Positions 41,257 to 57,000 of a stretch of DNA of 64,000 nt are shown here, in pieces. Every line of letters starts with the position of its first letter. The stretch's first letter is position 1. Below the pieces are notes generated by a model that ran no database searches, was not told where the DNA came from, and worked only from the letters and a program-made list of their open reading frames with translations. The stretch covers positions 75,469 to 139,468 of the forward strand of contig JAZQOS010000021.1 in assembly GCA_045627925.1 (NCBI GenBank). The letters are read 5' to 3'. Both the position numbers and the translations under genes were made by a program. Origin of the DNA: Kiritimatiellia bacterium. Its GTDB lineage: Bacteria; Verrucomicrobiota; Kiritimatiellia; RFP12; UBA1067.

Positions 41257-41333
<77 letters not shown>

Positions 41334-41355: not shown

Positions 41356-41368
41356 GTATTATATCACA
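41356..41368 (-). promoter_or_regulatory. Extended -10 (TGTGATATAATAC) for the tRNA-Thr/tuf transcript, overlapping the last codons of the upstream ATPase gene
   Basis: Reverse complement CACAAGTTTGTGATATAATACGCGAG. Confidence 0.4.
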
Positions 41369-42702
41369 AACTTGTGAATTTGCGCAAGGGGGTAATTAAA
41401 ACGGGAGGCGAGATACAACGGGATGTTCACAAACGCACCATCCTGTTTCAAATTACGTTCCGAAAAGCGAATCGCATAACGCGGATGCCGCGTGTTGACG
41501 AATGTCTTGAACGAGGCCGACTTTTTATCCTTCCCCGCCTTGACTTCCACCGGTACTGCAACGGAATCGTGCTGCAAAACAAAATCAATCTCCCTGTTCG
41601 CCCGTTTCGCGTAATAGTGAACCGCGCCTTCCACTTGCCCGGATAGCTGTTGTAGCACATAGTTCTCGACGAACCGACCCTTGAACGGAAAATCCCTGTC
41701 CAGCGCCAGCGACTCGGTGCTCACGCCAGCCACCGATCGCAGCATACCGATGTCGTTCAGATAAAGTTTGAAGGCGTTGCGCACCTCGTAGGCGGCCAAA
41801 GGATAGGCTATCTCCCCGACGTTGTAGATCCGCCGCACCATCCGAGCGGACACCAGCCACTCAATCGCCTCTTCGTATCCGCGGCCACGCGCCCCTTCCC
41901 GCAACGCCCCGTAGATGAACTTGCTGTTTTCCTTCGCCAGTTGCGGCACCACCGATCTGAGAACGACAAGAATCTTGGCGGCGTCGATTTCTCCATTGTA
42001 CTTCACGATGTCGTTCTCGTACAATGCGACAAGATCCTCCTGCAACTTCGCCACGCGCGACGGATCCTCGTTGGCAATGTAATTCGCGACAACCTCCGGC
42101 ATGCCGCCAACCATCAGATAAAGACGATATTCATCCGTCAGCTTGCGGTGAAACACATCCGGTATCGGCTCGACACCACGAATGGACAAGAAATACTCCC
42201 AAAGCGACTCGTTTCTCGCTCGCAGAAATTCCGAGAAGGAAATCGGTTCGACATTCATAAGCTCGACCTTGCCGACCGGATAGGTCTGCGGCAGCTCATG
42301 CGAACCGCGCGTTCGACGCAACTTAACCCCCAGCAAACTTCCCGCCGCAAGAATCGCCAGTTGCGGGCATTTCTCGCAAAAGTACTTCAGGCAGTTCAAT
42401 GCATTCCCGCATTCCTGAATCTCATCGAAGATAACCACATCCCGTGCAATGTCAATCTTCGCGCCACTAATGGCCGAAAGTCGGGTCAAAATGGATGATG
42501 GATCCTTGGTTCCCTCGAAAACCGATGCCAAATCCGGCGTATCGTCAAAGTTAAATTCATGAACACGGGCAAAGTGCTTCCGACCAAAATCACGCATCAG
42601 CCATGTCTTGCCAACCTGCCGCGCTCCCATTAAAACCAACGGCTTACGATCTAAACGATCTTTCCAAGCCAAAATATCTTCTTCAACAAGCCTTTTCATC
42701 AT
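41359..42702 (-). CDS. AAA-family ATP-binding protein with DUF4143-like C-terminus (paralogue 2)
   Basis: Walker A GARQVGKTW; Walker B VVIFDEIQ; 447 aa. Confidence 0.7.
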   Translation of the reverse strand: MMKRLVEEDILAWKDRLDRKPLVLMGARQVGKTWLMRDFGRKHFARVHEFNFDDTPDLASVFEGTKDPSSILTRLSAISGAKIDIARDVVIFDEIQECGNALNCLKYFCEKCPQLAILAAGSLLGVKLRRTRGSHELPQTYPVGKVELMNVEPISFSEFLRARNESLWEYFLSIRGVEPIPDVFHRKLTDEYRLYLMVGGMPEVVANYIANEDPSRVAKLQEDLVALYENDIVKYNGEIDAAKILVVLRSVVPQLAKENSKFIYGALREGARGRGYEEAIEWLVSARMVRRIYNVGEIAYPLAAYEVRNAFKLYLNDIGMLRSVAGVSTESLALDRDFPFKGRFVENYVLQQLSGQVEGAVHYYAKRANREIDFVLQHDSVAVPVEVKAGKDKKSASFKTFVNTRHPRYAIRFSERNLKQDGAFVNIPLYLASRFNYPLAQIHKFVI

Positions 42703-42771: not shown

Positions 42772-44172
42772 TCACTTTACCGTAATAACCGGTGCCTTGC
42801 GGGACTTTCCAAGCTGGATAAGCGGATCGCCGAAAAGCATTTCCTCGACGATGGCAGACTGGATATACGGGAGATCTTCTTCGACGTTGCAGCCGCGCTT
42901 TTCAATCTCCGCCTGCTGATTGGCACCGTAGATGATTCCCACATAAGTCGAGATCGCGTACTTCCACGCTTCTCCAGCCGTCTTGCCATCCCGAACATAC
43001 GCATCAAGCGTATAATCCAACATTTCGTCCGAGATTCCGCAATAACGCTTGGCAAAGCTTGTCTCCGCACTTTGTCCATACGAAGCATTGCCAATTGCCA
43101 CCAATGCCCCACCATTGGGATTGGAAATCGCGGTTTCAGCAACCGATGAATAATCAAAATTATTTACCGAACCGCCAAAGCATGGTGCATTGCAAGCAAA
43201 AAACTTAATAAGCCCAACATTATTGCCAAAAAATCCGGTTGAAAGAAAACTTATGCCTTCTAATGTTCCATGATCATACGGCATGAACATTTCCCAGTCC
43301 TCGCCCAAGATGCACTCTTTCATTGGAATAGTGTCATCTTCCTTATAGTCCTTCTTAAGGTTGGCAAGATAGGTTATTGAAGAAGGCCGCGCCGCCTTGA
43401 TAGCCGTATTAAGCCGAAGATTCATCGTATAATAGGTATCGGGATTGCCGTCCTTATCATACATCGAGCCTGTCATCTTCGCCTGTCCCGAAAGCCCCGC
43501 AAAGCGATTGTTGCCATCAAAACTTGCGCTCTCGCCACGTACCAATTTATTTACGTATGCCCGAACAAGCTCTTCGTATGTAGGAATGCTGCCATCGGAC
43601 TTTTGGACATATTCGCTTGGACGAAAATCCATTCGCGAAACAATGCACTTGGGCATCAGCGAATCCTTAGTTGAAAGCTCCCCCACTCCGCAATATTCAC
43701 CATCGCTATTGGGATCCCAATTGGCAGGACACGCAAAATAAAGATCAGATGGATACTGATCAAAATACTTAGCACTACTTTTTGCTTTAACTGGATAAGC
43801 GGTAATTCCCGGAATTGCATTATCGACCGTCAGCGTTACTCCCTGTACTGTCGCAGCCGTTGCTTGTACATCAAACCACATCCCACCCAAGACAAAATAT
43901 TTTGTTCCCGTTTGAGTCGCGGCGTTAATATACGCCTTAATCGACTCGGCCGCGTTGCGATAGTCCTTCCCTTCGCCATATTGATACGTTGCGTAGATCT
44001 CTTCCGCACTCTTCACCGCGAAGGTAACATTCGGGTGCGCTTTTTGGCGCTCGCCAATGTACCACGTCCAAAGCTCGACATAGTTCTTCGGCGCGATGAC
44101 GACATAGTCGGCGGCGGCGAACGCGAGATAAGCGAAAACAATTCCAAGCGAAGCAATTAAGATCTTTTTCAT
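42772..44172 (-). CDS. Secreted C25 (gingipain-like) cysteine peptidase homologue, short form (~466 aa); C-terminal tail KAPVITVK
   Basis: ATG at 44172 (the track starts at the TTG at 44181). Signal peptide. YFVLGGMWFDV (compare gingipain YVLLIGD); putative dyad PYDHGTLEG (His) and FACNAPCFGG (Cys); LFGDPLIQL end motif. Alignable to residues ~230-720 of the 3099-aa protein. Confidence 0.6.
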   Translation of the reverse strand: MKKILIASLGIVFAYLAFAAADYVVIAPKNYVELWTWYIGERQKAHPNVTFAVKSAEEIYATYQYGEGKDYRNAAESIKAYINAATQTGTKYFVLGGMWFDVQATAATVQGVTLTVDNAIPGITAYPVKAKSSAKYFDQYPSDLYFACPANWDPNSDGEYCGVGELSTKDSLMPKCIVSRMDFRPSEYVQKSDGSIPTYEELVRAYVNKLVRGESASFDGNNRFAGLSGQAKMTGSMYDKDGNPDTYYTMNLRLNTAIKAARPSSITYLANLKKDYKEDDTIPMKECILGEDWEMFMPYDHGTLEGISFLSTGFFGNNVGLIKFFACNAPCFGGSVNNFDYSSVAETAISNPNGGALVAIGNASYGQSAETSFAKRYCGISDEMLDYTLDAYVRDGKTAGEAWKYAISTYVGIIYGANQQAEIEKRGCNVEEDLPYIQSAIVEEMLFGDPLIQLGKSRKAPVITVK

Positions 44173-44182
44173 GGTAATCAAT

Positions 44183-44191
44183 ATTATATCA
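44183..44191 (-). promoter_or_regulatory. Extended -10 (TGATATAAT) 10 nt upstream of the C25-homologue ATG (leaderless)
   Basis: Reverse complement GGGTAAAAATGATATAATATTGATTACCATG. Confidence 0.4.
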
Positions 44192-44533
44192 TTTTTACCC
44201 GACTATGATGCGCTCTTAATCCCACCCGACAGAAACGCGGCAGAAATTACTCCGACTTTCGGGGTGTGTCCCCGCCCCCAGCCTATCGCCTCAATGGGGT
44301 CGCACCCCACTGTGGCCCCTCCTTTTTTGCCGGGACACACCCTCATTTTCGACTCTTCCGGGAGATGAATAAAATCGAAGGGTGTCTGGTCCGCTTTGCT
44401 ATCCCGGCTGCACGATCCTCTTGCGAGGAAGGGCTCCAGCTACTTCTCCGTGCCTCAGCTGTGTACTTCCGGAGGGTTGCCTTCGACGCCCATTATTCTA
44501 CCACACCAAACTTCTAAAAGGCAATAGCGCGCC

Positions 44534-45697
44534 TTACTTATTTCCCTTTGCGCGATTGTGGGTCTTGCAAAGCATTTGGCAGTTGCCGATGTCGGTCGCT
44601 CCGCCCTTCGACCATGCGGTTACATGGTCTGCATCCATCTCATTAAAGCTATAGATTCTCGATTTGTTCGCCGCATGACCAATCGCGCAAAGCGGACAAT
44701 TCGATATTCCCTTGGCTTTGGCATCTTCGGTTTGCTTCGCATAAACTATCTTCGCCTCTTTGGGATCAAATACCCGAATCTCAAGTAGTTTTACGTCTTT
44801 TTCGCCTCCGAGAACATACTCAAAGACGCCTCGCCGATTTTTCACGCACTCGTCCGCATACAACGCTTTAACGCGCTCTATAACTTTCTTTGGGTTATAT
44901 GATGTTTTATGATATGTCTCGTAAAGCCGTCCCCACTCAAGTCCGCACATTTCATCTTCGGCGCACTCGAACACGCCGTCTATCCAATCGATTACCGTAT
45001 TGAAGTAGGTTTTAAGCTCCCTGATGTCCTTATCCCTGCGATGCTTGGCCATATAGCCATCGATATCGCCCTTCGACACCCAATTAAGCGCCTCGCGCAA
45101 AATCTCCTGGCGCTTCTCGTTCCCTTTTACATACGCCTTCCACTTTTGGAGATTGGAGTTATTGGAATTACTGAACTCTTCTTTTGCCGCAGTCACAAAC
45201 GGACCCGAGTAAATCGCGTTCAGAAGCTCTTGCTCATTTAGTGGAACGCCGACGATATTAATCGTCTTGAACCATTCCTTGATTTCCGGCTCTTCGCCTT
45301 CGCATACGTAAATCGTGAGCTTTGCGGCGAGAATGCGCTTTTGCAGCACCTTATCAAGCCCGTCAAAGTTTTGCTGCATCCCGTTCCTGTCGACAACCGC
45401 AAACTTATTCGTCACAAATCGTCCAATACTCGTAATTCGCTGTTGTCCATCCAATACCTCATACTTACCTTCCTTCGTTTTCACGAAGTAGATAAGCCCA
45501 AGCGGATATTCCTTGAGCAAGGAGTCGATTACCGCAACATCTTTCTTGCCGTCAGCATAAATATAGTTGCGCTGATACTCGGGCTGAATAACGAGCTTAC
45601 CACCCCACCCAAAAAGGCCCTTGCCTTCAAGCTCGTTATACACAAACCCATCGCAAATATCCGCAACTGTCAAATCAGTTATTAATGTCGTTTTCAT
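44534..45697 (-). CDS. DUF262 (ParB/GmrS-like NTP-binding) domain fused to a C-terminal HNH endonuclease
   Basis: DGQQR motif (LDGQQRITSIGRF); C-terminal CPLC...ADHVTAWSKGG...NCQMLCKTHNRAKGN (HNH with zinc ribbon); 387 aa; ATG overlaps the MTase stop (ATGA). Confidence 0.8.
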   Translation of the reverse strand: MKTTLITDLTVADICDGFVYNELEGKGLFGWGGKLVIQPEYQRNYIYADGKKDVAVIDSLLKEYPLGLIYFVKTKEGKYEVLDGQQRITSIGRFVTNKFAVVDRNGMQQNFDGLDKVLQKRILAAKLTIYVCEGEEPEIKEWFKTINIVGVPLNEQELLNAIYSGPFVTAAKEEFSNSNNSNLQKWKAYVKGNEKRQEILREALNWVSKGDIDGYMAKHRRDKDIRELKTYFNTVIDWIDGVFECAEDEMCGLEWGRLYETYHKTSYNPKKVIERVKALYADECVKNRRGVFEYVLGGEKDVKLLEIRVFDPKEAKIVYAKQTEDAKAKGISNCPLCAIGHAANKSRIYSFNEMDADHVTAWSKGGATDIGNCQMLCKTHNRAKGNK

Positions 45698-46890
45698 TTG
45701 CCCTTTCCTTTCCTCGCCTGCTTCCGATTCCTAATTAATATTCGCTGATAAACCTTCTCCTGTGTTTCACCAATTGTAATGACTCCACTAGCATTCAAGT
45801 CGTACGTCCCCTTCTTGCCAAACTTCTTGAAATACGCCGCCTTACACTCAGCCGAGGTGTAGACCCGAGTTTTCATGCCATATAAATCCTCATTCTCACA
45901 CATTCCCAATATCTCAAACTGCTCCGGACAATACTTATCAAGAAACGAGATTGGCACGCCCATTACGCCCTTGTAATCACTTGGGATTGCATCGGTATAT
46001 GGAATCTCAATTGCATCATAATTATCATACTTTTGATAACCGATATTTCGCACTTCCTTGTGCTTCGAATACTTGATGTTGTCAGCCTCGCTCATCAATT
46101 GAAGAGGTTGATGTCGCCGCCCATGCTCAAGATTGGTAAACCATCTAACACCTTTTACGCGAATAAATTTACTTCCTTTTTCATCAACTCGCGTTCCTGC
46201 TGCATAAAGCGGATACTCATCTGGAACGCCAAACTCACGATCTCCGCTATGAATACTTTCGCCTAGCCATAACTTATTTTCCTTAATCAAGGGAAATACC
46301 TCTTTATAAGTTATAGCGTTCATATTCCCGATAATTAAGAATTCCTTCTTTGCTTCCACAATCCAAGCCAAAAACTCACGGAAAAGCGAAAACGGCGGAT
46401 TAGTTACGATAATATCGGCTTCGTCGCGAAGCTTCCTTACCTCATTACTACGAAAATCACCGTCGCCTTTTAGATACTTCCACTCCAAGTCCTCAATATC
46501 AATCCGCCCATTCTTGTTGGTGTCGTGATCAAGAACGAATATCTTGCCCTTTACGCGCGTTTTCTTCTTATCAAAATGCGGAGACTTCGTTTCAAATAGG
46601 GTTGGTTGGTAAATCTGCTTTATATTCTTTGATTCGATTGCATAGCTGGTCGAGATCAGTTTTTTAAGCCCAAAGTGTTCAAAGTTTTGGGCGAAGAACT
46701 TGGTAAAGTTGCTCCACTCGGGATCGTCGCACGGCAAAAGAACTGTCTTGCCACGAAAAACATTCGGGTCATATTCCAAGTACGCATTGACCTCTTTTTG
46801 GATGTCAGCATATTGCGTATAGAACTCGTCGTTCTTCGCACTCTTCGCCTTCGATAGATTCGTGTTCGCCATGTCTTTCCGTTCGCGCAT
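45694..46890 (-). CDS. N6-adenine DNA methyltransferase, EcoRI-methylase-like family
   Basis: N-terminal NDEFYTQ motif; motif IV DIIVTNPPFS; ~398 aa (an alternative ATG lies at 46872). Confidence 0.75.
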   Translation of the reverse strand: MRERKDMANTNLSKAKSAKNDEFYTQYADIQKEVNAYLEYDPNVFRGKTVLLPCDDPEWSNFTKFFAQNFEHFGLKKLISTSYAIESKNIKQIYQPTLFETKSPHFDKKKTRVKGKIFVLDHDTNKNGRIDIEDLEWKYLKGDGDFRSNEVRKLRDEADIIVTNPPFSLFREFLAWIVEAKKEFLIIGNMNAITYKEVFPLIKENKLWLGESIHSGDREFGVPDEYPLYAAGTRVDEKGSKFIRVKGVRWFTNLEHGRRHQPLQLMSEADNIKYSKHKEVRNIGYQKYDNYDAIEIPYTDAIPSDYKGVMGVPISFLDKYCPEQFEILGMCENEDLYGMKTRVYTSAECKAAYFKKFGKKGTYDLNASGVITIGETQEKVYQRILIRNRKQARKGKGK

Positions 46891-47270
46891 ATCGCAAAAC
46901 AGTCAGACATGAAAAGCGGCACGCCTCTCCACGTCGCTCCGTGGCTCTGGAAAGCCCATAAGAAACGTGAAGAGGCGGCCAGATTGCTGGCACACCTCTG
47001 CAAACACGTCGTCTTATTTGAAATTTTCCAGATTTCGGAGCCGACTTGTCTTGCAGTGATGCAAGTAAATTATTGTGCAGCCAAGGGTGGGCTTTTCGCG
47101 GGACTTTTGCGAACCCGTAGGCTCGACTCCCATCTACTTCGCCAGTTCTATGACCTATGTGGTTCCCCTCGCGGAGAACATGAAATATTATAGCAAAAAT
47201 TTCTTATACTTAGTACATACAGATGTGTTGTTGTTTTTTATGTTTTCTTTTTTTGTCTTGTTTATGTTAG

Positions 47271-47350
47271 TGTCTCTATTGGAGACTCCGGAGTCTCTAT
47301 TGGAGACTTCAAAGTCTCTATTGGAGACTATCGAGTCTCCATTGGAGACT
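47271..47350. repeat. Four tandem ~21-bp units, each a perfect palindrome AGTCTC-N5-GAGACT
   Basis: GTCTCTATTGGAGACT at 47272, 47293 and 47315; GTCTCCATTGGAGACT at 47335. Confidence 0.85.
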
Positions 47351-47527
47351 GCCATTAACGCTCGTTAACGCCTTTTGTTGATAACTTCTGGCAAACTGAG
47401 GACTTGACCCTCCTTTTCGCATGGATAACGAGGTTTATCAGTATATTTTGATTGCAGTAACACCCCTCCCCCACCCAGAAAAAAGGCCAAAAAAACGTTG
47501 TGAGGGGGGGTAACTGCTATTAAAAGT

Positions 47528-47575
47528 GATAATTAATAATAATATATATATTTATTATTATTTTACTTAAATAAC
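47528..47575. repeat. ~45-bp pure A/T tract (possible DNA-unwinding element), preceded by a C-run/G-run inverted repeat at 47461-47510
   Basis: AATTAATAATAATATATATATTTATTATTATTTTACTTAAATAA; CCCCTCCCCCACCC ... GAGGGGGGG. Confidence 0.7.
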
Positions 47576-47584
47576 CCCTATTTT

Positions 47585-47668
47585 GATAGCAGTTTGATAG
47601 CAGTTGATAGCAGTTTTCAACTGCAATCAAGCCCTATTTTGACCCCAGATTGCAGTTTTCAACTGCAA
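47585..47668. repeat. Three tandem GATAGCAGTT repeats plus two copies of the palindrome (TT)GCAGTT-TTC-AACTGC(AA)
   Basis: GATAGCAGTT at 47585, 47596 and 47606; palindromes at 47612-47626 and 47650-47668. Confidence 0.85.
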
Positions 47669-47724
47669 CCAAACTGCAGTCAAACCGCAACCATTCTCTC
47701 CCGCTGGCGGGTAGCGATATGGTC

Positions 47725-47806
47725 GTTGGGGGTTTGAGGTTTGACTGTTGGGGGTTTTGACTTTGAGCGTTGGGGGTTTTGACTTTGAGCGTTGGGGGTT
47801 TTGAGC
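47725..47806. repeat. Four tandem 22-bp iteron-like direct repeats GTTGGGGGTTTTGACTTTGAGC
   Basis: Copies start at 47725, 47747, 47769 and 47791 (the last is truncated). Confidence 0.85.
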
Positions 47807-47999
47807 ATCTCTGCTGGTAGAAAGCTCGACCCGTTATCCCCTTTTGATCGACCTCGCCGACGGGTAAGACAAAATCGGTTAACGGGCAAGACCAAAAGTG
47901 GTATACCACTTTACCCCTTACCCGTTAACGGGTTTTCGAAAAAGGGTATACCCTTTTTCAAAAAAGGGTATACCACTTTTGGCTTTTACCAGCAGAGAT
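47807..47999. repeat. Inverted repeat TCTCTGCTGGTA / TACCAGCAGAGA bracketing three perfect 18-bp palindromes (AAAGTGGTATACCACTTT, AAAGGGTATACCCTTT, AAAAGGGTATACCACTTTT) and a CCGTTAACGG palindrome
   Basis: Sequence read directly; coordinates 47808-47819 and 47988-47999 for the flanking inverted repeat. Confidence 0.8.
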
Positions 48000-48093
48000 C
48001 GTAAAATAGCCCGCCTACGCAGTTTCCAAGTCGTAGTTGTAGAAAGGAGGCTTAAAATTCCACTCTACCACTACAACTTGATACTACAACTAT

Positions 48094-51000
48094 TTACCTG
48101 ACTATGATGCGGGGAGCGCGATGAATCACCGGCGTCTTCGGGAATAGTTCCGTATAGGCCTTGATTTCCGAAGTGTTCAACACGCGTGAGTAAAGCCGAC
48201 CATCTTGTAAATAAACTTTTTCATTTGACGTTTGTGCATGCGTATAAGAGCAAGCTGTATTATTGAAAAGGAATGCAAGTTCTTTTTCACCCGACTCACC
48301 AGCTTTAACGCCATCCACATATAACGTCCATTTTCCATATGATCCGCTCAAACTGTCAAATGTAATAATGTAAGTATGGGTTTGCTTATTAGCAAATGGG
48401 ACGGTAACTCCTTCCGATGGATAATACGAAGTTGCACCGTTGCCACTGATAAAGAATTTAATCTTATTGGCAGTATCACCCGTCATAAGTCCAACCTTAA
48501 CTTTGGTAGCTCCCCATGCCAAGTTTTCCGCCCAAAGCTCCTCTTTTGCATTCGCCGTCTTAAGCGAGCAGGCAATGGTCATTGACGAGGGCGAAGTTGC
48601 AAGTTTCGTCGCATCGTAGTTCGGCGTCTCCGTGCTGAACTGATAAAAGATAGTGTCAAGATCTACCGGCTGTTCGACGACATAAAGTCCATCGTCACGC
48701 TTTTCGAGAGTAAGGCCAGCGGCATTGAGCGAAGCGCTGGTGAAAGTTTTCTCATAGGGCGTGCTCCACGTAATCAGCCGCGTTCCGACCGCGATCGAAG
48801 TCGGAACGATGAGCTCAATCGTGTCTTGAGCGAGCGTAACTCCACTTAAAGTAATCGGCGCTACGCCAGCCGCAAGCGAAATGGTCGCACAGTCAATCGA
48901 CCCTGAACCCGTGAAGGTATAGGACGATAAAGTTGAATTAAAGTTCATCTGCGAGCAAGCAACATCTTCATTGACGGTAACTGTTACTGCATTGACCAGT
49001 CCGCCACTCGTCGTTGAAACTGCGTCTTCAAAGCTCACCGCATTGCCGCTCGTCGTGCCAGTTCCATTATTAAAGCCACTCGCCGTCCATTCGCCGCTCT
49101 CCGTCGACCACGCCGTACCGCCTACACTTGCATTGGCCGCTGCACAAAGCCATCCATCAGAAACTGCAAGTTCCTTATCGAGCAACGCGCCAGCAACACG
49201 GAAAGTCGCCTTCGAAAACTCAAAGTCGTCTACTACGTGAATGAGCTTCAAGACTCCCGTTGCACCCTCCGTTCCGCTTGCATCAATAATACCAACCGGA
49301 TTGGAGTCGAGCGTAAAGCTACTATTGAGCTTAATTACGAGCGTGCCATTACCATTAAGTGCAACCTTGCTGGTGCTTGGCGACTTAAAGCTAAAGCTAC
49401 TCAAATAAATTGATTGATTTGAAGGTGGTGCAAAAACAACCAGTCCATTGTCAACAATCTCCGCTCCATACTCTCCACCAACTGCATTGCTCCGATCAAA
49501 ACCAACACACCCCTTCTCGTCTACTACCACTTCAACTAATCCATTCGCATTACTTATTGCGAGCATAAGCGACTGCTTGTGATTAGCCGTCTCTTCCAAC
49601 GAGGTAACAGTGAGGGTAAAGTGGCCTGGCTGATTTCCACTCGCCCTTGGGAAGGATCCCGTAAACAAAGTATACTCCGTCTGCGTCACTTCAATCCACC
49701 GATTGCCGGAGTTTGTCGTATCGTAACGGAACACACCACTACCACTCAAATTGGTAATCTTAAATGGCGTTTGTGCCGTATTATAACTCGGTCCAATAAA
49801 GATAGTTGAATTATTGCAAAACGAGAGTGTGGATGCAAACGAATTGGTAGGCGGATAAATATAGTTTCCACTTGCCGTCGAGAAAAACTCAACCGTGCCT
49901 TCGCCGGTAATATTACTTAGGTCGCACTCTTCAAGCGCAGTCACATTGTCCGCATGCTCAAAGACGAGTCGTCCACCATGCTCCACGATAACTTCATGAC
50001 CGTTAAGTGGCGCTGGATTGTTGTTGCTCATGCCAACGCGCACAGTAACCCCATCACTAATCACCAACTTCGCCGCATCTTTGATGAGGCAAAGCCGCGC
50101 CTCGCCAATGCCAACCAAGCGAAGCGTGCCATCGCCCGAAAGATAAATATCGTTGCCAAGCTCTTCCGTACCGAAACTATTGACGTTGCGCTCAACAACT
50201 TCATTGTCCTTGACCTCAATCGCATCTGGCCAAGCGGGGAATTCGTCTGCGAGCGCTTGAATCGCCGCTGGTGGAAGCGCGTAATCATACGCCCGCACAT
50301 CGTCCAAAATACCATCCACAGATTTAGAACCTACCCCACCACCGCAGACACTAAAGAATTGCCACTTCACAAGATCAGGTAGCGGCTGAGCGCCGGTAAG
50401 TTCAGTAGCTTCGCCAATCTTCTTACCATCTACATAAAAGGTATAGACACCTTTATGATACGTAAGTGCATAAGAATAGAAGCGCGCTGTCGCCGCCATT
50501 ACATCGCCTTGGATGAGATACGTAAAGCTGTTGCCGCCACCCCAACGACTAATTGCTGCATGATTCGCATCAACTGTCGTGAGCGCAAGGCCAGCCGAAT
50601 TGTCGCCTAATGAAAAATGCATAGCATTCTGATTCGTCCCTAAACGTGCACACCACGCAAAGGTCCAATCATTGGGACCAATGTAGAAGCGCCGCTCGTC
50701 ATTGGCATTATTATTGGCCTTTTCGGCCTTTACACCGTAACCATTGCGTGTCTTGGTATAAGCGTCGAGGTTTAAGCTCCCAAGATTGGTAATCCCGTGG
50801 CTTCCCCAGCTATTGACATGCTGATCAAACTTAAGCCCAGTTGTGACATCGTTAAGGTTGGCAATCTTGTAGATGAGCTTATTGCCGCTTTGAGTCCATA
50901 CGCCCATCGGATTCGTCTCGCCATTAGGGCCTACGACCTCGACTAAGAATTTATCCGCCTCATAGGTGAAACCATCCGCAATTTGAATGAGATCACAACC

Positions 51001-54000
51001 AACGGACACATCGCCCAAAGCGAAGATAAGTTTACCGACAGGATTCGAGGCAAGGGTCGCAATTGATGGTGCAAGCCCCGACAACGTAACACCGCCCGTA
51101 ATAATAAGCGATCCCGTAAACTGACGGAACTGATCGGTAATCACAACCGACGAGTCACCACTCGCATTGCCGTTAAAGGTAATTGCCGAAACGCCACCTA
51201 AGTAAGCATCCCCAACGAGCGTAGTAAAGTTGCTCGATCCCGCTTCGAGATCGAAAACGAGTGGCTGCGCGTCTGCGCCCTCCGTCTTCCAGACGAGTTT
51301 CCCGTTTTCAATGTCGTCCATCGTTACCGCTTTCCAACGACGATCACCATTGGGAGCAACCGCAACCATAGTCAAAGGTTCTTCACCCAACATAAAGCCG
51401 CTTTGTACTGGAATTATTTCCGTCTTAGCATCAAAGGCACTTACATTAAACCGAATTGAGCCAGTCGTGCCCGAATAAAGCTTATACTTGCTGGCCACAT
51501 CTGAATAGGTCGTAAGATCAATCACATCACCATTAGTGGTAATATATCCATTGCCCTTTAAGTTTTCGCTGCTATTGACCCGAGCATTACGGCCCATGAT
51601 TAGAAGTCCACTGTTGTTAATATCTCCATTCCAATAGCCATTGAGTTCTAAGCAGCCACTCGTTTCAATATCAAGTGGCTGACTACTATCAGAATGAGCT
51701 CCAGAAGCGCTTGACGAGGTGCCAGAATAAATTAGTCGCCGATTAACCGATGGCGTTGATTCACTACCTGCTACCACCAACTTAACCCCGATTGTCGCAC
51801 CAAGTAATTTAAATGCAGGACACAATGCGCCATTCCACTCGCTCGCCCGCGATTGGATAGTACGAAGTGCACGCAATCCAGCCATTGCAGTTACACGCGA
51901 AAAATCATTACCCACAATGCTTATGATATTGTTCGCATTGATGTTACCAATGCCAATCATACCCGCACCGCTAAGATTTGAGACTTCCATAGGATTTGTC
52001 CTATGATCAAGCTGCATCTCAAGCTCGGTGTGCAAGACGAGTGAAAGTGTAGAGGCAAACATCTTCGCCTTAACTGGCACCATAAATCTAAAGTTTCCAT
52101 CCTGAACGATTTCCACTTCGCCATCTCCCGTAAGTCCACTCCAGTTAGCAGTCGTGGACGAGAAATATTGCGTATGGTGAATGACAAGGCGTGAGCCCAA
52201 CTTAACTTCAACATGTCCCGTTTCAACTGGCGAGACATTACTATTCAAGGTAATGGTCGTATTTGCGCCAGTATCCAGCGACAAAACGCCCGATCCCGTA
52301 ACATAGTCAAAGACCGGAAGAATGTCGCCTTGAATAGTTGCAGGACCATTCATCGTGAACTCAGATGGCAATTTAACCGATACCCCATCATTTGCCTTCA
52401 AAATGAGTTTCTCGGTAGCCAAGCCGCTAACTGGCCCAATAGTCAGTTTCGTCGTCGGACAAGCACCCACAATAACTGTCGCCCCATCAGTTGCCGCTTC
52501 CAGTCGCGCAGCATAAACGTCATTCCAGTTTTCAATCTCAACTTCGCTCTCGTCGTAAGCACGCCAAGAAAGCTGCGTCCAATCGGTTTCACCCGCTGGC
52601 ACCGTTGCGTGGATTTCTGGTGGAACGAGATAGACAAAAGTTCCCTCGCGTGAAAGGAAGAACCCTTCGGTCCTACCGCCTTCAATTGGTTGAAACGCTT
52701 GCGCATCAAGTCCTCCGATTGGCCAAAGCGAATCCTCGTCAATTGTGAGCACTTTCTGGCGAGAGGCCTTAACGTTTTCGGTGATGGCAATATAAAGAGC
52801 GCCTTGGGCTCCTTCGCCAAGCGCCCACTTCTCCGACGGCTCATAGATATAGACACTGTCGTTACCACCACTTACGAGCACTCCGCTCGAAGGTCCTTTA
52901 ATATTAGTTTCAGTTGCAGAATAAAGAATGCCCTCCTCAATTTCCACATTATTCAAAGTGACATTCTCAAATCCTTCCAGATGAAGTTCGCCCACTTTCA
53001 ATTCGCCGCCCTCAGCAATCGTGAAAGTAAAGCTCTTGACCGTATCATCCGCAGGAACGAACTTAAGCGTATTAAAGCGAGCTGGTTTATCTAAGGTGAG
53101 GGTCGCGTTATTCACAGCAACGGTAATTACACCGTCCGCCGTCCAGTCAAGATAACTTTCGCTCCACTTCTTCGTAAACGCCGTGCCATTGCCCGACCAT
53201 GCGGCGTCGTCCCAGTTAAGATTCGCCGAATTGACAGTCATTGTATAGGGCGAGGCGATATCGTCGCGCTTAACAAGGCAAAGCGCACCATCTTGAACCG
53301 CGAGCGAACAAGTGTCGCCTTCGACTTCTAACTTGCGCAAATCTTGCATATTCCAATGATGACCCGTGCCACCAATAATCACTTGTGGAGTTGCTGATGG
53401 GGTAAAGTCGCTGACATCAATCTTCACCTTCGAGCCGTCCTCCGGCCAAACGATTGAGGTAGTTGAATTCCACTCAAGATACTTTTCGTTTTCCGCTTTA
53501 AGGTAAGCGCCCTTATTGAGGACAAGATTCATCTTGTGGGAACCTTGCAAGGTCAACTTGCCGCCCTCATTTATCGTAATTTCAGTCCAATTATCGCCAT
53601 CTCCGCGCAATGTTGTCGCCTCGAAAATGCCGCCAGCTGCTACTTCTACGATAGGCGATATGATTTCCGTACCTTCTGCATCGCCACCCGAAACATAAAG
53701 TCGCGTATTGAAAATGAGCGGAAGCTCAAAGTGCGTCCAACCACCGATGACGAGCGAGTCGAAAGTAAGGGTTGCGTCTACTGCCGTTTGCGCTCGCTTA
53801 AAGGTGTACTTAGTAGTTGAGTTCGCAAAGCAAGTAAACGGACTTACAATGGAAGTCGCAAGTTGCACCGTAGCTACACTACCCGCAATATCGGGGAAGT
53901 AGACGCGCTCAGTTGGATCAAAAGCGGCCTCTTTACCATTCTTGCGCCACGGCTTAAAGGTCTTCTCCGAAGTCCACACTTCGTCTTCGCTCACCCATTC

Positions 54001-57000
54001 AAGAAGTGTACCCGACTGGAAGATAGTACCAGTTTGGGTATATTCAGCAATGATCTCGCCTTCGTCTTGAGCTTTGACCTTAACGGCAAACTCACCCTCC
54101 ACCACCATTGCGCTTGCAATCGGGACAACTTGATAGAAGTTACCCTCCTCGTATGGCAGGACAATCGTCGTTCCACTTGCAAATTCGAGGCGCTCAAGAT
54201 TGGAAAGCGGTAGCTTCTCCATTTCCATAGTTACGCCTTCACCAATGCGAATCGTACCATCAAGTCCATCCGCATTACCTACAATGACGCGACCTAAACC
54301 CGTAAAGACGAGCTTATCATCACTTCCCGCATTAAAGTCCGCATCAAGCCGGCAAACCGCACCCTCGTTGAGATAGATGGTTGTCGTGCCAATTAAGTTG
54401 AACCTACCACCATTCGTAGTTAAAAATCTGCAATTTCCGCTCATCTCCAAGGTAGCTTTATCGAGATAGAAGTCTTCCGTCGCATCAACTGCGAGCGTCG
54501 AGTTAGTCATCACGAGCTTCTTCTCGCTCACACGCTCTGAATAATTATTGCCGCTACTATCTTTTGCACCACGCCAACGATTTTGGCGGAAAGTCAAAAC
54601 TGAATTATTAAGTGTCGCCAAAGTATCACCCTCGTAGCCATCAAATGCTTCGTATGTTTCGAGGGTAAGGGCAATATTCTTAAGCGTGAGCGGCAAGAAG
54701 CGAACGAGTTCGCCTTTTATCTTCTGCTGATTGGTTCGTAAAACGTTGTTGCTTGAGACAATTGGAGATTGCCCTTCAAAACTAAGTGTTTGAAGAGTAT
54801 TATCGATTCCGCCTAAATCAAGAATCGCACCACCGCCTTGAAAAGCAATACTCCGTGCATTTGAAACTCCATTAATGAAATAGTACTTCTGGCCTTCGTT
54901 ATTGTTGTTAAGGACAAGATTGCCAGTGTTAGTAAAGTTAATCTTGCCCAAGCCTACACCTCCAGAGACCCCAATCTTAAGTGTGCCGCTCGAGACATTG
55001 AGGTCTTTCATGAGACGAAGTGAACTTGTACCTTTAAGTTCAAAGGTGCTTCCCGCATTCTGCGTCACGTTCATCGTCATGCCACCGTATGGTAGCTCCG
55101 TCTTCCCAAGTTCCTCTTCAATCGTATTAGGCACCATCGTAATTGTGGCTCCGCCCGAAACATTGAAGTTGATGTTATTCGCGTGATAGAAGGTGGAAGC
55201 GCTACCATTCTTCGTCCAATTCTGACTCGTCATATCCCATGTGCCATCGCTTCCACCAGCCCATGTGTAATCAAACTTATCTGAAATCTTGATTAAGGGA
55301 TCTCCATAGAGCATTTCGATCATCATACAGTAAAGACCGCCCTCGTTGATGTTCTTCTGTCCCACGGGCAAGTTGGAATTACCATTGCTAAGGTAAGTTC
55401 TAACCGAGTTTAACCACGCCTCGCCTGCGCAGTAACCTTGCGCAACGTTATCGCACATGTGATAGTGCATACGGTTGGAGAGTCCCTTACCATTAAGCTC
55501 CTCGGTTTCGAAGTAGCTTAAGCCCACGCGCGTATTATTCATAGACGCGATAAAACCACCAGTTTCGGTGATATTCGCAAGTCCTGCTTCACCCAAGCAA
55601 AGATTGAGTACGAGTTTACCATTGTTCCGCCCATAAAGATCGGGGAAACCAGTTTCGCACGAAATACCTACAACGTTAATCTTGGTAAGACCTGGCTGAG
55701 TTAAAAACATCGTCGAATTAAACATGGACGATCCACCCGCCCAACCGTGTCCATTGTTGGAGCCAGTTTCCTTATCGTAATTATAAAAGTCATTATAGAA
55801 AGAACTCTTCGTTGAATTGTGCGAAACAATATCGGGCTCATGGAAACCCATTGCGTCAATAATCGGATGACGCGGCGCCATAATCTCTTTCGCATGACGA
55901 CGTGTAAGCGGACCATCATCACGGAAACCAAATCCATGGACTGGATCATACATATTGGGAACATTATCAAAAAACTCACGCTCATCGCGAAGGACTAAGC
56001 GTGGATCGGTCATATCGCGTGGCGTATAATTTAAAGGTGAGGAAGTAAGACCCATCTTGAAGTTACCTCTAAACTTAGGATCTTCTGCACGATTCACTTT
56101 CTTAACGAAGTTGGTGATAATCTCATGCTGGTTCATCGTCACGCCATTGACCATTACTGGCTTCATCGTCATACGCGAAACCGCAAAGTCTGGCCTTAAG
56201 TTGCAGTGCTCAGATTCGTGATCGATAATTTTTCCGTTAGCGTCAAGAATTCGAGTCATATAACGTCCATCGCCATTATAGTCCCACGGATGACCTTTGT
56301 TGTCCGCTCCCCGCGTAACGCACGCATAAAACAAATCGGTTGGGGCGCGTGCGCCATGACACTCCATACAAATGGAAGGAACTGCGTTATTGAGCGTAAT
56401 TTCCGTGCCATCTTGCAAATAGTGTGCTTCACTATTATCTGCTGTTACATCATACCACGATCCACCAAGAACCACATACTTAAGTGCGTGACTTTTGGAA
56501 TACTGAGTTAAATAAGCATGAAGCGATTCTGCAGGGTTTGCGTAGGTAGTAGAGGTTTCGCCGTTCCAACCATTAAACGGATAAGCGTTGTAAGCATCAA
56601 TCGTGTTGATGATGTCAAAAGTAAGCGTGGGATGGTTTTTCTTGCGCTCGCCAATATACCACGACCAAGTATCATACAAATCTGGCGGCGAGATCATAAG
56701 GTAATCAACTGCCGTACCTTGAGCGGCGGCCATCAATTGCTCGGCCTTGGGCGCGGCATCTTCGGGGTTAACGAGCGTGGAGAGAGTGGCGGCAATATAG
56801 TCGGGGTGAGCGAGAGGCGTGGAGGTTGATGGAGAGGAGGTTGAGGCGGAGGGAGAGACGGAAAGGGTTGACATCAAGCGCGGCTTTTCGGTAAAGACCA
56901 CCGACAGCTTGAGGTTTTTCGCTTTTTCCAAGCGTTCATTCTCGTACCTAAATGGCGTGACGCCGACGATAACTACATCAAGAGCGGTAATCTTCTCGAC

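What the first reader, a model, noticed from the sequence alone, without database searches (positions are those of the whole stretch)
44534..46890. Overlapping adenine-MTase / DUF262-HNH nuclease gene pair: an atypical restriction-modification-like module
An EcoRI-methylase-like N6-adenine MTase (NPPF motif) is translationally coupled to a downstream nuclease by an ATGA overlap. The nuclease fuses a ParB/GmrS-like DUF262 domain (DGQQR) to an HNH nuclease. DUF262-HNH proteins are normally stand-alone Type IV, modification-dependent enzymes. A cognate MTase partner would be paradoxical for a Type IV enzyme. The pairing therefore points to a Type II-like system with an NTP-sensing nuclease, or to a methylation-sensing defence variant. 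The module is visibly AT-rich relative to the surrounding genome.
Basis: partly seen in the sequence, partly recalled or inferred. Interest (0 to 1): 0.6.

Follow-up and report, generated by a model that had tools for sequence, protein, structure and literature searches.

The report
Methylase paired with ParB-like HNH nuclease
This is a real, horizontally mobile two-gene restriction-modification module, common in bacteria and phages but apparently never studied in the lab, whose nuclease stays nearly constant while the partner methylase swaps its likely DNA-recognition cassettes, which suggests the methylase alone decides which DNA is attacked.

Summary
On the minus strand, a 398-aa EcoRI-family N6-adenine methylase (45694-46890, NPPF intact) overlaps by ATGA a 387-aa protein (44534-45697). 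That protein has a GmrS/ParB-like DUF262 domain (DGQQR) and a C-terminal HNH nuclease with all catalytic and zinc ligands.

The pair is not an oddity. Where context was readable, 82 of 84 genome, plasmid and metagenome loci and 72 of 75 viral contigs carry an EcoRI-family methylase next to the nuclease, across many phyla. The link persists at 35-45% nuclease identity. PADLOC scores both genes as Type II R-M components.

The new point is comparative. The nuclease has no variable block (mean pairwise identity 0.72). The methylase has two hypervariable blocks that shuffle as cassettes, with 22 central types in 140 pairs. Nucleases that are 99% identical sit beside methylases with unrelated cassettes.

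My best reading (confidence 0.5) is that the methylase sets specificity and the DUF262-HNH protein is a generic NTP-dependent effector, as in Type III or Type I systems. A classical Type II system remains a rival (0.28). No methylome, biochemistry or REBASE look-up was possible.

The parts
46891..47064 (-). Conserved leader or promoter region upstream of the methylase gene. This is the outer limit of DNA homology with related modules.
   Evidence: In blastn against relatives, homology ends at 46905 (L087), 47026 (L007) or 47064 (L089). Nothing beyond that point is shared.
45694..46890 (-). EcoRI-family N6-adenine DNA methyltransferase. The ORF is 398 aa from the first ATG. The probable true start is the ATG at 46872, giving 392 aa.
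   Evidence: PF13651 E 3.6e-135 over the full length. PADLOC MTase_II PDLC03297 E 8.6e-96. About 44% identical to the methylase that sits next to R.EcoRI. Homologues align from residue 7. AF2 model pLDDT 85.9, pTM 0.81.
46390..46401 (-). NPPF catalytic motif (motif IV) of the methylase.
   Evidence: Read directly as AAT CCG CCG TTT. Invariant in alignments.
46141..46260 (-). Central hypervariable cassette of the methylase (about residues 211-250 of the 398-aa ORF). Probable target-recognition element.
   Evidence: Per-block conservation is 0.34-0.42, against 0.7-0.9 in the flanks. 13 cassette types in 83 pairs and 22 in 140 pairs. It ends 6-10 residues before the equivalent of M.EcoRI H235, whose H235N mutant alters intercalation and specificity (PMC2396439).
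45751..45900 (-). C-terminal hypervariable block of the methylase (about residues 331-380).
   Evidence: Conservation 0.17-0.22. It comes as unrelated cassettes that assort independently of the central cassette. DNA homology with the closest relative L087 is interrupted across about 45741-45904.
45694..45697 (-). ATGA overlap of the methylase stop and the nuclease start (translational coupling).
   Evidence: Read directly. The same 4-nt overlap occurs in 35 of 82 related pairs (33 ATGA, 2 GTGA).
44534..45697 (-). DUF262 (ParB/GmrS-like NTPase)-HNH nuclease, 387 aa. The presumed restriction subunit.
   Evidence: PF03235 and PF01844. PADLOC REase_II PDLC03418 over the full length, E 6.6e-88. 8000 or more homologues, 60-96% identical across phyla.
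45209..45592 (-). DUF262/GmrS_N domain (residues 36-163), with the QPEYQR motif and DGQQR at 45437-45451.
   Evidence: PF03235 E 1.9e-21. Q38, P39, E40, Q42, R43 and D83-R87 are invariant. D83, G84 and R87 are invariant even at 34-67% identity. A profile hit to BrxU 7P9K covers this motif.
44537..44698 (-). HNH nuclease domain (residues 334-387). The catalytic D357-H358 lie at 44624-44629.
   Evidence: PF01844 E 8.8e-8. C334, C337, D357, H358, N372, C377, H380 and N381 are invariant. A family profile hits HNH structures 4H9D (E 8e-6), McrA 6GHC and Cas9 HNH.

Best explanation
This is a two-gene restriction-modification system that spreads as a compact mobile cassette.

Shown:
- The upstream gene is an EcoRI-family m6A methylase with intact catalytic motifs.
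- The downstream, translationally coupled gene is a DUF262 (ParB-like NTPase fold)-HNH nuclease with intact catalytic residues.
- The two genes are inherited together in about 97% of loci.
- The nuclease is uniformly conserved. The methylase carries two hypervariable cassettes that are exchanged by recombination without any matching change in the nuclease.

Inferred:
- The cassettes are the target-recognition elements, so sequence specificity lies in the methylase alone.
- The methylase marks host DNA with m6A at its site.
- The nuclease has no sequence specificity of its own. It is a generic, NTP-gated effector that cuts DNA lacking the mark.
- The favoured route is recruitment or licensing by the methylase when it is bound at an unmodified site, as Res depends on Mod in Type III systems or HsdR on HsdM/S in Type I. 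Here a ParB-type NTP switch would take the place of the helicase motor.
- The alternative route is direct reading of m6A status, as SspE reads phosphorothioate.

Either way, a cassette swap in one gene would retarget the whole system. That would explain the pattern of variation.
For: Linkage:
- 82 of 84 readable genome, plasmid and metagenome loci have a same-strand upstream PF13651 methylase; 35 of them show the 4-nt overlap.
- 72 of 75 readable viral loci have the methylase adjacent.
- The link persists in nuclease relatives only 35-45% identical.
- DNA homology with relatives is confined to the two genes plus at most about 170 nt upstream.

Asymmetric variation:
- Nuclease conservation is 0.61-1.0 in every 10-residue block. 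The methylase blocks 211-250 and 331-380 fall to 0.34-0.42 and 0.17-0.22.
- There are 22 central cassette types in 140 pairs.
- Nuclease identity is 0.724 within a cassette type and 0.720 between types.
- Mutual information between nuclease columns and cassette type is 79.4, against a null of 74.2 +/- 2.4 with a maximum of 80.95.
- 54 pairs of loci have nucleases at least 85% identical but different cassette types.
- In L009 and L010 the nucleases are 384/387 identical. The methylases are near-identical except for both variable blocks, which are unrelated.
- The window nuclease and the L087 nuclease are 96% identical, yet their methylases carry different cassette types.

Cassette at the DNA interface:
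- M.EcoRI H235, whose H235N mutant changes intercalation and specificity (PMC2396439), lies 6-10 residues beyond the cassette end.
- The methylase next to R.EcoRI shares the 'type 8' cassette with several DUF262-HNH-linked methylases.

Nuclease tolerated without an active adjacent methylase:
- L031 and L055.
- Prophage loci L123, L134 and L139.
- The deletion fusion P0092.
- The in-frame fusion P0383 with a degenerate NPPF.

Established knowledge: characterised DUF262 nucleases (GmrSD, BrxU, SspE) have little or no sequence specificity and are gated by NTPs and DNA modification (PMC12707154, PMC12065111).
Against: - There is no direct evidence that the cassettes determine specificity. No methylome or REBASE data could be consulted.
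- There is no evidence of a physical methylase-nuclease complex, and M.EcoRI itself works as an independent monomer.
- PADLOC labels the nuclease a Type II REase over its full length. If that model was seeded from a characterised enzyme, a member with its own defined site may exist.
- The nuclease has a helical middle region of about 170 aa with no assigned function, which could bind DNA specifically.
- The nuclease structure model was too poor to interpret (pLDDT 57).
- I could not map the cassettes onto the methylase's DNA cleft, because no solved relative was found.
- No conserved methylase feature specific to nuclease-linked methylases was found.
Confidence: 0.5

Rival explanations
1. Classical Type II R-M. 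The DUF262-HNH protein is an autonomous restriction endonuclease that recognises its own fixed sequence. All partner methylases protect that same sequence despite their divergent cassettes. The variable blocks would then be tolerant surface loops or targets of anti-restriction proteins.
For: - PADLOC scores the two genes as MTase_II and REase_II over their full lengths.
- The organisation is separate M and R genes on small plasmids and phages, typical of selfish Type II modules.
- Several HNH enzymes are known Type II REases (general knowledge).
- Cassette types 4 and 8 are the same length and share an F-x-VP-x-EY-x-LY framework, so some types could be divergent homologues with the same specificity.
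Against: - It requires 22 cassette types of different length and motif, plus independently assorting C-terminal blocks, all to give one specificity.
- The sharp mosaic boundaries (97% identity, then unrelated, then 88% in L009 vs L010) look like selected cassette exchange, not drift.
- Intact nucleases occur without an adjacent methylase.
- A conserved NTPase-type domain is not a feature of classical Type IIP enzymes.
Confidence: 0.28
2. The nuclease is a modification-dependent (Type IV-like) enzyme aimed at modified phage DNA, as GmrSD and BrxU are. The methylase would be a functionally independent passenger, for example giving anti-restriction self-protection to the mobile element, or it would act on a different target.
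For: - The DUF262 domain is shared with Type IV enzymes (weak PADLOC hits to HEC-05/06, NsnA and PD-T4-2_A).
- A few solitary nucleases sit in prophage lysogeny modules.
- In L098 the pair lies next to a full GmrSD gene in what looks like a defence cluster.
Against: - About 97% linkage to one methylase family, fixed M-then-R order and frequent 4-nt translational coupling are hard to explain without functional dependence.
- The C-terminal domain is PF01844 HNH, not the DUF1524 that defines GmrSD.
- Phages carry the pair, so a nuclease triggered by the linked methylase's own mark would be suicidal.
Confidence: 0.1
3. A mainly selfish addiction module (post-segregational killing) with no significant defence role, or, in this particular genome, a decaying remnant that is no longer expressed.
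For: - It is frequent on small plasmids.
- It is a compact two-gene unit with sharp homology borders.
- It lies in a low-GC region of the window next to other probably acquired genes.
Against: - Both ORFs are intact with all catalytic residues.
- Addiction and defence are not mutually exclusive, and this reading says nothing about how the nuclease recognises its targets.
- No consensus promoter stands out upstream, but the scan is uninformative for this phylum.
Confidence: 0.07

Closest known systems
EcoRI Type II R-M system (M.EcoRI with R.EcoRI)
   Same: The methylase belongs to the same Pfam family (PF13651, full length, NPPF). It is about 44% identical to the methylase that sits next to R.EcoRI on E. 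coli plasmids. Both are two-gene mobile modules.
   Different: The partner nuclease is unrelated: DUF262-HNH rather than the PD-(D/E)XK enzyme R.EcoRI. The gene order is M then R, not R then M. The window methylase carries a different central cassette ('type 4', against M.EcoRI's 'type 8') and a longer C-terminal block. Its specificity is unknown.
GmrSD / BrxU family of Type IV restriction enzymes (DUF262 + DUF1524)
   Same: An N-terminal DUF262 ParB/Srx-like domain with the DGQQR motif, fused to a His-Me-finger nuclease (weak profile hit to BrxU 7P9K).
   Different: The C-terminal domain is PF01844 HNH, not DUF1524 (PF07510). The protein is about 200 aa shorter. It is almost always coupled to a methylase, whereas GmrSD and BrxU are stand-alone and modification-dependent (PMC4619093, PMC12707154).
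SspE of the SspABCD-SspE phosphorothioate system
   Same: A DUF262 NTPase-nuclease encoded beside the genes that write a DNA mark on the host genome, and depending on that mark to discriminate (abstract of PMC9646914, seen; PMC12065111).
   Different: The mark would be m6A, not phosphorothioate. The nuclease domain is HNH, not DUF1524. The system has two genes, not five. Direct reading of m6A by the DUF262 domain is untested.
Type III R-M systems (Mod/Res, e.g. EcoP15I)
   Same: The order is mod then res, with adjacent or overlapping genes. The methylase has a hypervariable recognition cassette between conserved flanks. The restriction subunit is conserved, NTP-dependent and has no specificity of its own. 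These are resemblances of logic and of evolutionary pattern (PMC11142916 for the Type III mechanism).
   Different: There is no SF2 helicase and no PD-(D/E)XK domain in the nuclease. The methylase belongs to a different family. No complex has been shown. It is not a member.
PADLOC-DB models MTase_II PDLC03297 and REase_II PDLC03418
   Same: Both window proteins match these models over essentially their full lengths (E 8.6e-96 and 6.6e-88). Current defence-annotation pipelines would therefore call the pair 'RM type II'.
   Different: The label is a database category. I could not establish which sequences seeded the model, or whether any was characterised. No paper in the searchable library describes this pair.

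Membership tests
EcoRI_methylase family (PF13651) N6-adenine DNA methyltransferases | Full-length match to the family profile above the curated cut-off | tested here: met
   451 bits against a cut-off of 26.4; profile positions 1-344 of 345.
EcoRI_methylase family (PF13651) N6-adenine DNA methyltransferases | Catalytic (D/N)PP(F/Y) motif | tested here: met
   NPPF at 46390-46401; invariant in alignments.
EcoRI_methylase family (PF13651) N6-adenine DNA methyltransferases | GAATTC specificity (M.EcoRI proper) | not testable with these tools
   Only about 44% identical to the methylase next to R.EcoRI, and the central cassette differs. No methylome is available.
HNH (His-Me finger) endonucleases, PF01844 | Profile match plus the catalytic His, the structural and metal-binding Asn residues, and the zinc-binding Cys/His | tested here: met
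   PF01844 at 32.6 bits against a cut-off of 21.4. D357, H358, N372, N381, C334, C337, C377 and H380 are invariant. Profile hit to 4H9D, E 8e-6.
GmrSD-family Type IV restriction enzymes | N-terminal DUF262 domain with the DGQQR motif | tested here: met
   PF03235 E 1.9e-21; DGQQR at residues 83-87.
GmrSD-family Type IV restriction enzymes | C-terminal DUF1524 (PF07510, GmrD) nuclease domain | tested here: not met
   No PF07510 hit. The C-terminus is PF01844 HNH.
GmrSD-family Type IV restriction enzymes | Stand-alone gene with no cognate methyltransferase | tested here: not met
   A methylase is adjacent in 82 of 84 and 72 of 75 readable loci.
GmrSD-family Type IV restriction enzymes | Cleavage depends on modified bases | not testable with these tools
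   Needs biochemistry.
Classical Type II (IIP-like) R-M system | Separate, adjacent methyltransferase and endonuclease genes | tested here: met
Classical Type II (IIP-like) R-M system | The endonuclease recognises the same sequence as the methylase independently, so R and M specificities must change together | tested here: inconclusive
   The nuclease shows no covariation with the methylase cassettes. This argues against the feature if the cassettes set specificity, which is unproven.
Classical Type II (IIP-like) R-M system | No NTP requirement | tested here: inconclusive
   The nuclease carries a conserved ParB/DUF262 NTPase-type domain with invariant motifs. NTP use itself was not tested.
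Type III R-M systems | Res subunit with SF2 helicase-like ATPase motifs and a PD-(D/E)XK nuclease | tested here: not met
   Only PF03235 and PF01844 were detected.
Type III R-M systems | The Mod subunit carries the only recognition domain, variable between conserved flanks, and Res is conserved | tested here: inconclusive
   The pattern of variation matches, but the role of the cassettes in recognition is inferred, not shown.
Type III R-M systems | Mod-Res complex needed for cleavage | not testable with these tools
   No multimer prediction or biochemistry was available.

The most novel reading that the evidence does not exclude
A widespread and so far uncharacterised class of R-M system. An EcoRI-family methylase with exchangeable recognition cassettes would be the sole specificity determinant. 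A specificity-less ParB-like NTPase-HNH protein would be the restriction subunit. This is Type III/Type I logic built from unrelated parts, with a ParB-type nucleotide switch in place of a helicase motor. Swapping one cassette in one gene would retarget both modification and restriction.
Probability: 0.4. Interest if true: 0.8.

Novelty: new variant of a known kind. Interest (0 to 1): 0.6.

Why it matters
If the methylase alone sets specificity, this family would be a new architectural solution to programmable restriction, alongside Types I, III and IIG. It would assign the ParB/DUF262 NTPase fold a role in classical, modification-blocked restriction rather than only in modification-dependent (Type IV) defence.

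The family is abundant. A close relative was found in 415 of about 186,000 species-representative genomes and in 322 viral contigs. There are 426 clusters at 50% identity with E below 1e-30. It occurs in gut, rumen, aquatic and candidate-phyla-radiation bacteria, on enterococcal resistance plasmids and in phages. It therefore probably shapes gene flow and methylomes in many microbiomes.

It matters in practice for three reasons.
- Pipelines now label it plain 'RM type II', which may mispredict how it behaves.
- Natural cassette-swap pairs such as L009 and L010 give a ready-made experiment on how methylase specificity evolves.
- A compact two-gene system with swappable specificity could be of biotechnological use.

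If it turns out to be a classical Type II enzyme, it is still the first indication of a DUF262-containing Type II REase family worth characterising.

Tried and rejected
- Sequence search of both proteins against PDB chains: no hits.
- NCBIfam: no family for either protein.
- AF2 model of the nuclease from 32 close homologues: pLDDT 57, unusable, so no fold search was run on it.
- Literature searches (DUF262 + HNH + methyltransferase; PF13651; GmrSD + ParB-like + Type III; DUF262 + EcoRI; DUF262 + 'type II restriction'; 'tyrosine 204' + EcoRI methyltransferase) found no description of this pair. My recollection that M.EcoRI Tyr204, which lies inside the cassette, photo-crosslinks to target DNA could not be verified, so I do not use it as evidence.
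- The PADLOC paper did not reveal how the REase_II model was seeded.
- I tested whether nuclease-linked methylases share a diagnostic insertion (MxMADNxKFSKHKE). Rejected: it is absent from the divergent linked methylases L093, L094, L098 and L102.
- Natural M-R fusions as evidence for a complex:
  - P0092 is an internal deletion that removes the catalytic half of the methylase.
  - P0383 is a genuine in-frame fusion in a TGA=Trp organism, but its NPPF is degenerate (FPSF) and no active methylase lies nearby. It is suggestive only.
- Rfam scan of 44000-48300: only sub-threshold hairpin artefacts.
- Promoter and terminator scan: counts no higher than in shuffled sequence.
- Looking up the source contig through the exact methylase sequence failed. 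The nearest named relatives are Kiritimatiellia MAGs.
Full report
**1. The observation**

The minus strand of the window carries two overlapping ORFs exactly where stated: 45694-46890 (398 aa) and 44534-45697 (387 aa). The first matches Pfam PF13651 EcoRI_methylase end to end (E 3.6e-135) and has NPPF at 46390-46401. The second matches PF03235 (GmrSD_N/DUF262, residues 36-163, E 1.9e-21) and PF01844 (HNH, residues 349-387, E 8.8e-8), with DGQQR at 45437-45451. The methylase stop and the nuclease start share ATGA at 45694-45697.

Two details need correcting. Homologues align only from residue 7, so the real methylase start is probably the ATG at 46872. The low GC is also not special to the pair. 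The pair is 44.8% GC against 53.6% for the window, but the whole 42-58 kb stretch is 47.3%.

**2. Is the pair a unit?**

Yes, very clearly. The nuclease has thousands of homologues that are 60-96% identical across unrelated phyla, which is a signature of horizontal transfer.

- In annotated records the same order, methylase then DUF262 protein, appears on an Enterococcus faecium resistance plasmid, an Arthrobacter conjugative plasmid, a 9-kb Pediococcus plasmid and in Flavobacterium phage laban6-1.
- I pooled 87 non-redundant loci: 80 species-representative genomes plus plasmids, the phage, metagenome contigs and the window. Of these, 82 have a same-strand upstream PF13651 methylase. The spacing was a 4-nt overlap in 35, another overlap in 7, 0-20 nt in 18, 21-400 nt in 12, and an inserted gene in 10. 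Three loci lack the sequence needed to tell, and 2 have room but no methylase.
- Of the 80 best viral contigs (out of 322 that encode a relative), 71 have the methylase upstream, 1 has it downstream, 5 are too short and 3 lack it.
- The link persists for nuclease relatives only 35-45% identical: Variovorax, Ligilactobacillus and three metagenome or phage-like contigs.
- DNA similarity between the window and its relatives begins at most about 170 nt upstream of the methylase and ends 2 nt after the nuclease stop. The mobile unit is therefore just these two genes.

D357, H358, N372, N381 and the zinc ligands C334, C337, C377 and H380 are invariant.

**3. What is already catalogued**

PADLOC scores the methylase as MTase_II (PDLC03297, E 8.6e-96) and the nuclease, over its full length, as REase_II (PDLC03418, E 6.6e-88). 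Only weak, N-terminal-only hits go to the DUF262 defence proteins NsnA, PD-T4-2_A and HEC-05/06. Standard pipelines would therefore call this 'RM type II'.

It fits GmrSD, BrxU and SspE, which have DUF1524 rather than PF01844 and are stand-alone (PMC4619093, PMC12707154).

I found no paper describing the EcoRI-methylase/DUF262-HNH pair, and I could not establish what seeded the PADLOC model. There is no solved structure of a close relative of either protein. A family profile reaches only generic HNH domains (4H9D, McrA, Cas9) and the N-terminal motif of BrxU.

**4. The unexpected pattern**

In classical Type II systems the endonuclease and the methylase read the same sequence independently. 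Endonucleases with different specificities are therefore essentially unrelated. Here the reverse holds.

- Across 83 pairs the nuclease is evenly conserved: mean pairwise identity 0.72, and every 10-residue block between 0.61 and 1.0.
- The methylase has two blocks, residues about 211-250 and 331-380, where conservation collapses to 0.34-0.42 and 0.17-0.22. These lie between flanks at 0.7-0.93.
- The central block comes as discrete, mutually unalignable cassettes bounded by NKxWxG and WxTN(L/I)(E/D)H. I counted 13 types in 83 pairs and 22 types in 140 pairs.
- The C-terminal block also comes as unrelated cassettes, and these assort independently of the central one.
- The nuclease does not track the cassette type. 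Identity is 0.724 within a type and 0.720 between types. Total mutual information between nuclease columns and type is 79.4, against a shuffled null of 74.2 +/- 2.4 with a maximum of 80.95.
- 54 pairs of loci have nucleases at least 85% identical but different cassette types.

The cleanest example is two rumen MAG loci, L009 and L010. Their nucleases are 384/387 identical. Their methylases are nearly identical over the first 230 residues, unrelated in the central cassette, about 88% identical over the next 110 residues, and unrelated again in the C-terminal block. The window's own nuclease is 96% identical to that of L087, yet the two methylases carry cassette types 4 and 8.

**5. Are the cassettes recognition elements?**

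This is inferred, not shown. Three observations support it.

- The mosaic pattern is the one seen for target-recognition domains in Type I HsdS and Type III Mod.
- The cassette ends 6-10 residues before the residue equivalent to M.EcoRI H235. The H235N mutant changes DNA intercalation and sequence discrimination (PMC2396439).
- The methylase next to R.EcoRI shares the type-8 cassette with DUF262-HNH-linked methylases, more closely than it shares the rest of the protein.

The methylase AF2 model is confident (pLDDT 85.9), with lower confidence in the central cassette (67-75). No DNA-bound structural relative was found on which to place the cassettes.

**6. Mechanism**

My best-supported reading is that specificity sits in the methylase. 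The DUF262-HNH protein would be a specificity-agnostic, NTP-gated nuclease that attacks DNA lacking the mark. It could be recruited or licensed by the methylase at unmodified sites, as in Type III or Type I systems; I favour this route. Or it could read m6A status directly, as SspE reads phosphorothioate.

Three further observations are consistent with this reading.

- Characterised DUF262 nucleases lack sequence specificity.
- Intact nucleases are tolerated without an adjacent active methylase: L031 and L055; prophage loci L123, L134 and L139; the deletion fusion P0092.
- A genuine in-frame fusion of a degenerate methylase domain (NPPF changed to FPSF) to the nuclease exists in a TGA=Trp organism.

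I give this reading 0.5. The classical Type II reading, with one fixed site and cassettes irrelevant to specificity, gets 0.28. It needs 22 cassette types to converge on one motif, but it cannot be excluded without methylomes or REBASE. An independent Type IV reading gets 0.1, because the fixed linkage, gene order and translational coupling argue against it. A purely selfish or decaying module gets 0.07.

**7. Context in the window**

The pair lies in a low-GC stretch (42-58 kb) downstream of tRNA-Thr and EF-Tu. It is flanked by an AAA_14/DUF4143 ATPase (PADLOC PDC-S01), a C25-like protein and a 3099-aa ORF. The closest named relatives are Kiritimatiellia MAGs. No integrase or repeat boundary marks the insertion. 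Homology to relatives simply ends at the gene borders.

**8. Verdict**

The finding is real and the two genes are a functional unit. It is not atypical for its family, and databases already bin it as Type II R-M. The family appears uncharacterised, however, and its evolutionary pattern of a constant nuclease with cassette-swapping methylases points to a non-classical, methylase-directed mode of restriction. I rate it a new variant of a known kind, with interest 0.6.

Noticed in passing
window 46891-48093: The 1.2-kb ORF-poor spacer between the methylase start and the stop of the 3099-aa ORF is packed with short repeat arrays. There are four palindromic AGTCTCTATTGGAGACT units at 21-bp spacing (47272-47350), four units of about 22 bp, CGTTGGGGGTTTTGACTTTGAG (47702-47804), GATAGCAGTT direct and inverted copies (47579-47684), three AAAAGGGTATACCACTTTT palindromes (47894-47979) and an AT-only palindrome (47531-47563). 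It looks like iteron or operator arrays, or an origin-like remnant. It is not shared with related modules, and Rfam gives only sub-threshold hairpin artefacts.
   Followed up: partly
window 41359-42702 (-): An AAA_14 + DUF4143 ATPase that matches the PADLOC candidate defence protein PDC-S01 over its full length (E 4.5e-148). It lies immediately next to tRNA-Thr (41257-41332) and two genes from the R-M pair, so this may be a small defence or acquired-gene cluster.
   Followed up: no
window 42772-44181 (-) and 48094-57393 (-): A 469-aa protein and a 3099-aa giant protein flank the module. Both start with a similar peptidase-C25-like N-terminal region (e.g. WTWYIGERQKAHPNVTF vs WSWYIGERKKNHPTLTF) and share the low GC (about 47-48%) of the 42-58 kb stretch.
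   Followed up: no
L027, L034, L037, L134, L137, L055 (related loci): Bro-N, RhuM-family, HTH and DUF4209 genes are repeatedly inserted between the methylase and the nuclease, or just upstream of the nuclease. In L098 the inserted gene is a NUMOD4/HNH_3 homing-endonuclease-like gene, and a full-length GmrSD gene lies just downstream of the nuclease.
   Followed up: partly
L097:6001-8067 (protein P0383): In an organism that reads TGA as Trp (33% GC), an EcoRI-family methylase-like domain is fused in frame to the DUF262-HNH nuclease (688 aa, seen on two contigs). NPPF has become FPSF and the CDDP motif is altered. No other methylase lies within the 9 kb read. It may be a nuclease that keeps a dead methylase as its DNA reader.
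   Followed up: partly
plasmid hits H79-H91 (Lactococcus): 21 Lactococcus plasmids carry only a 62-aa fragment (residues 32-93, 72.6% identical) of this methylase family with no annotated gene. These are probably relics of decayed modules.
   Followed up: no
L093 (Variovorax sp. SRS16 plasmid 2): Two EcoRI-family methylase genes in tandem precede one DUF262-HNH gene, followed by a tyrosine recombinase. This could be a two-methylase variant of the module.
   Followed up: no
L123, L134, L139 (IMG/VR prophage contigs): Intact nuclease genes without the methylase sit in prophage lysogeny modules, next to CI-like S24 repressors, a Bro-N gene, an integrase or a KAP NTPase. The close relative L137 still has the methylase.
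   Followed up: partly
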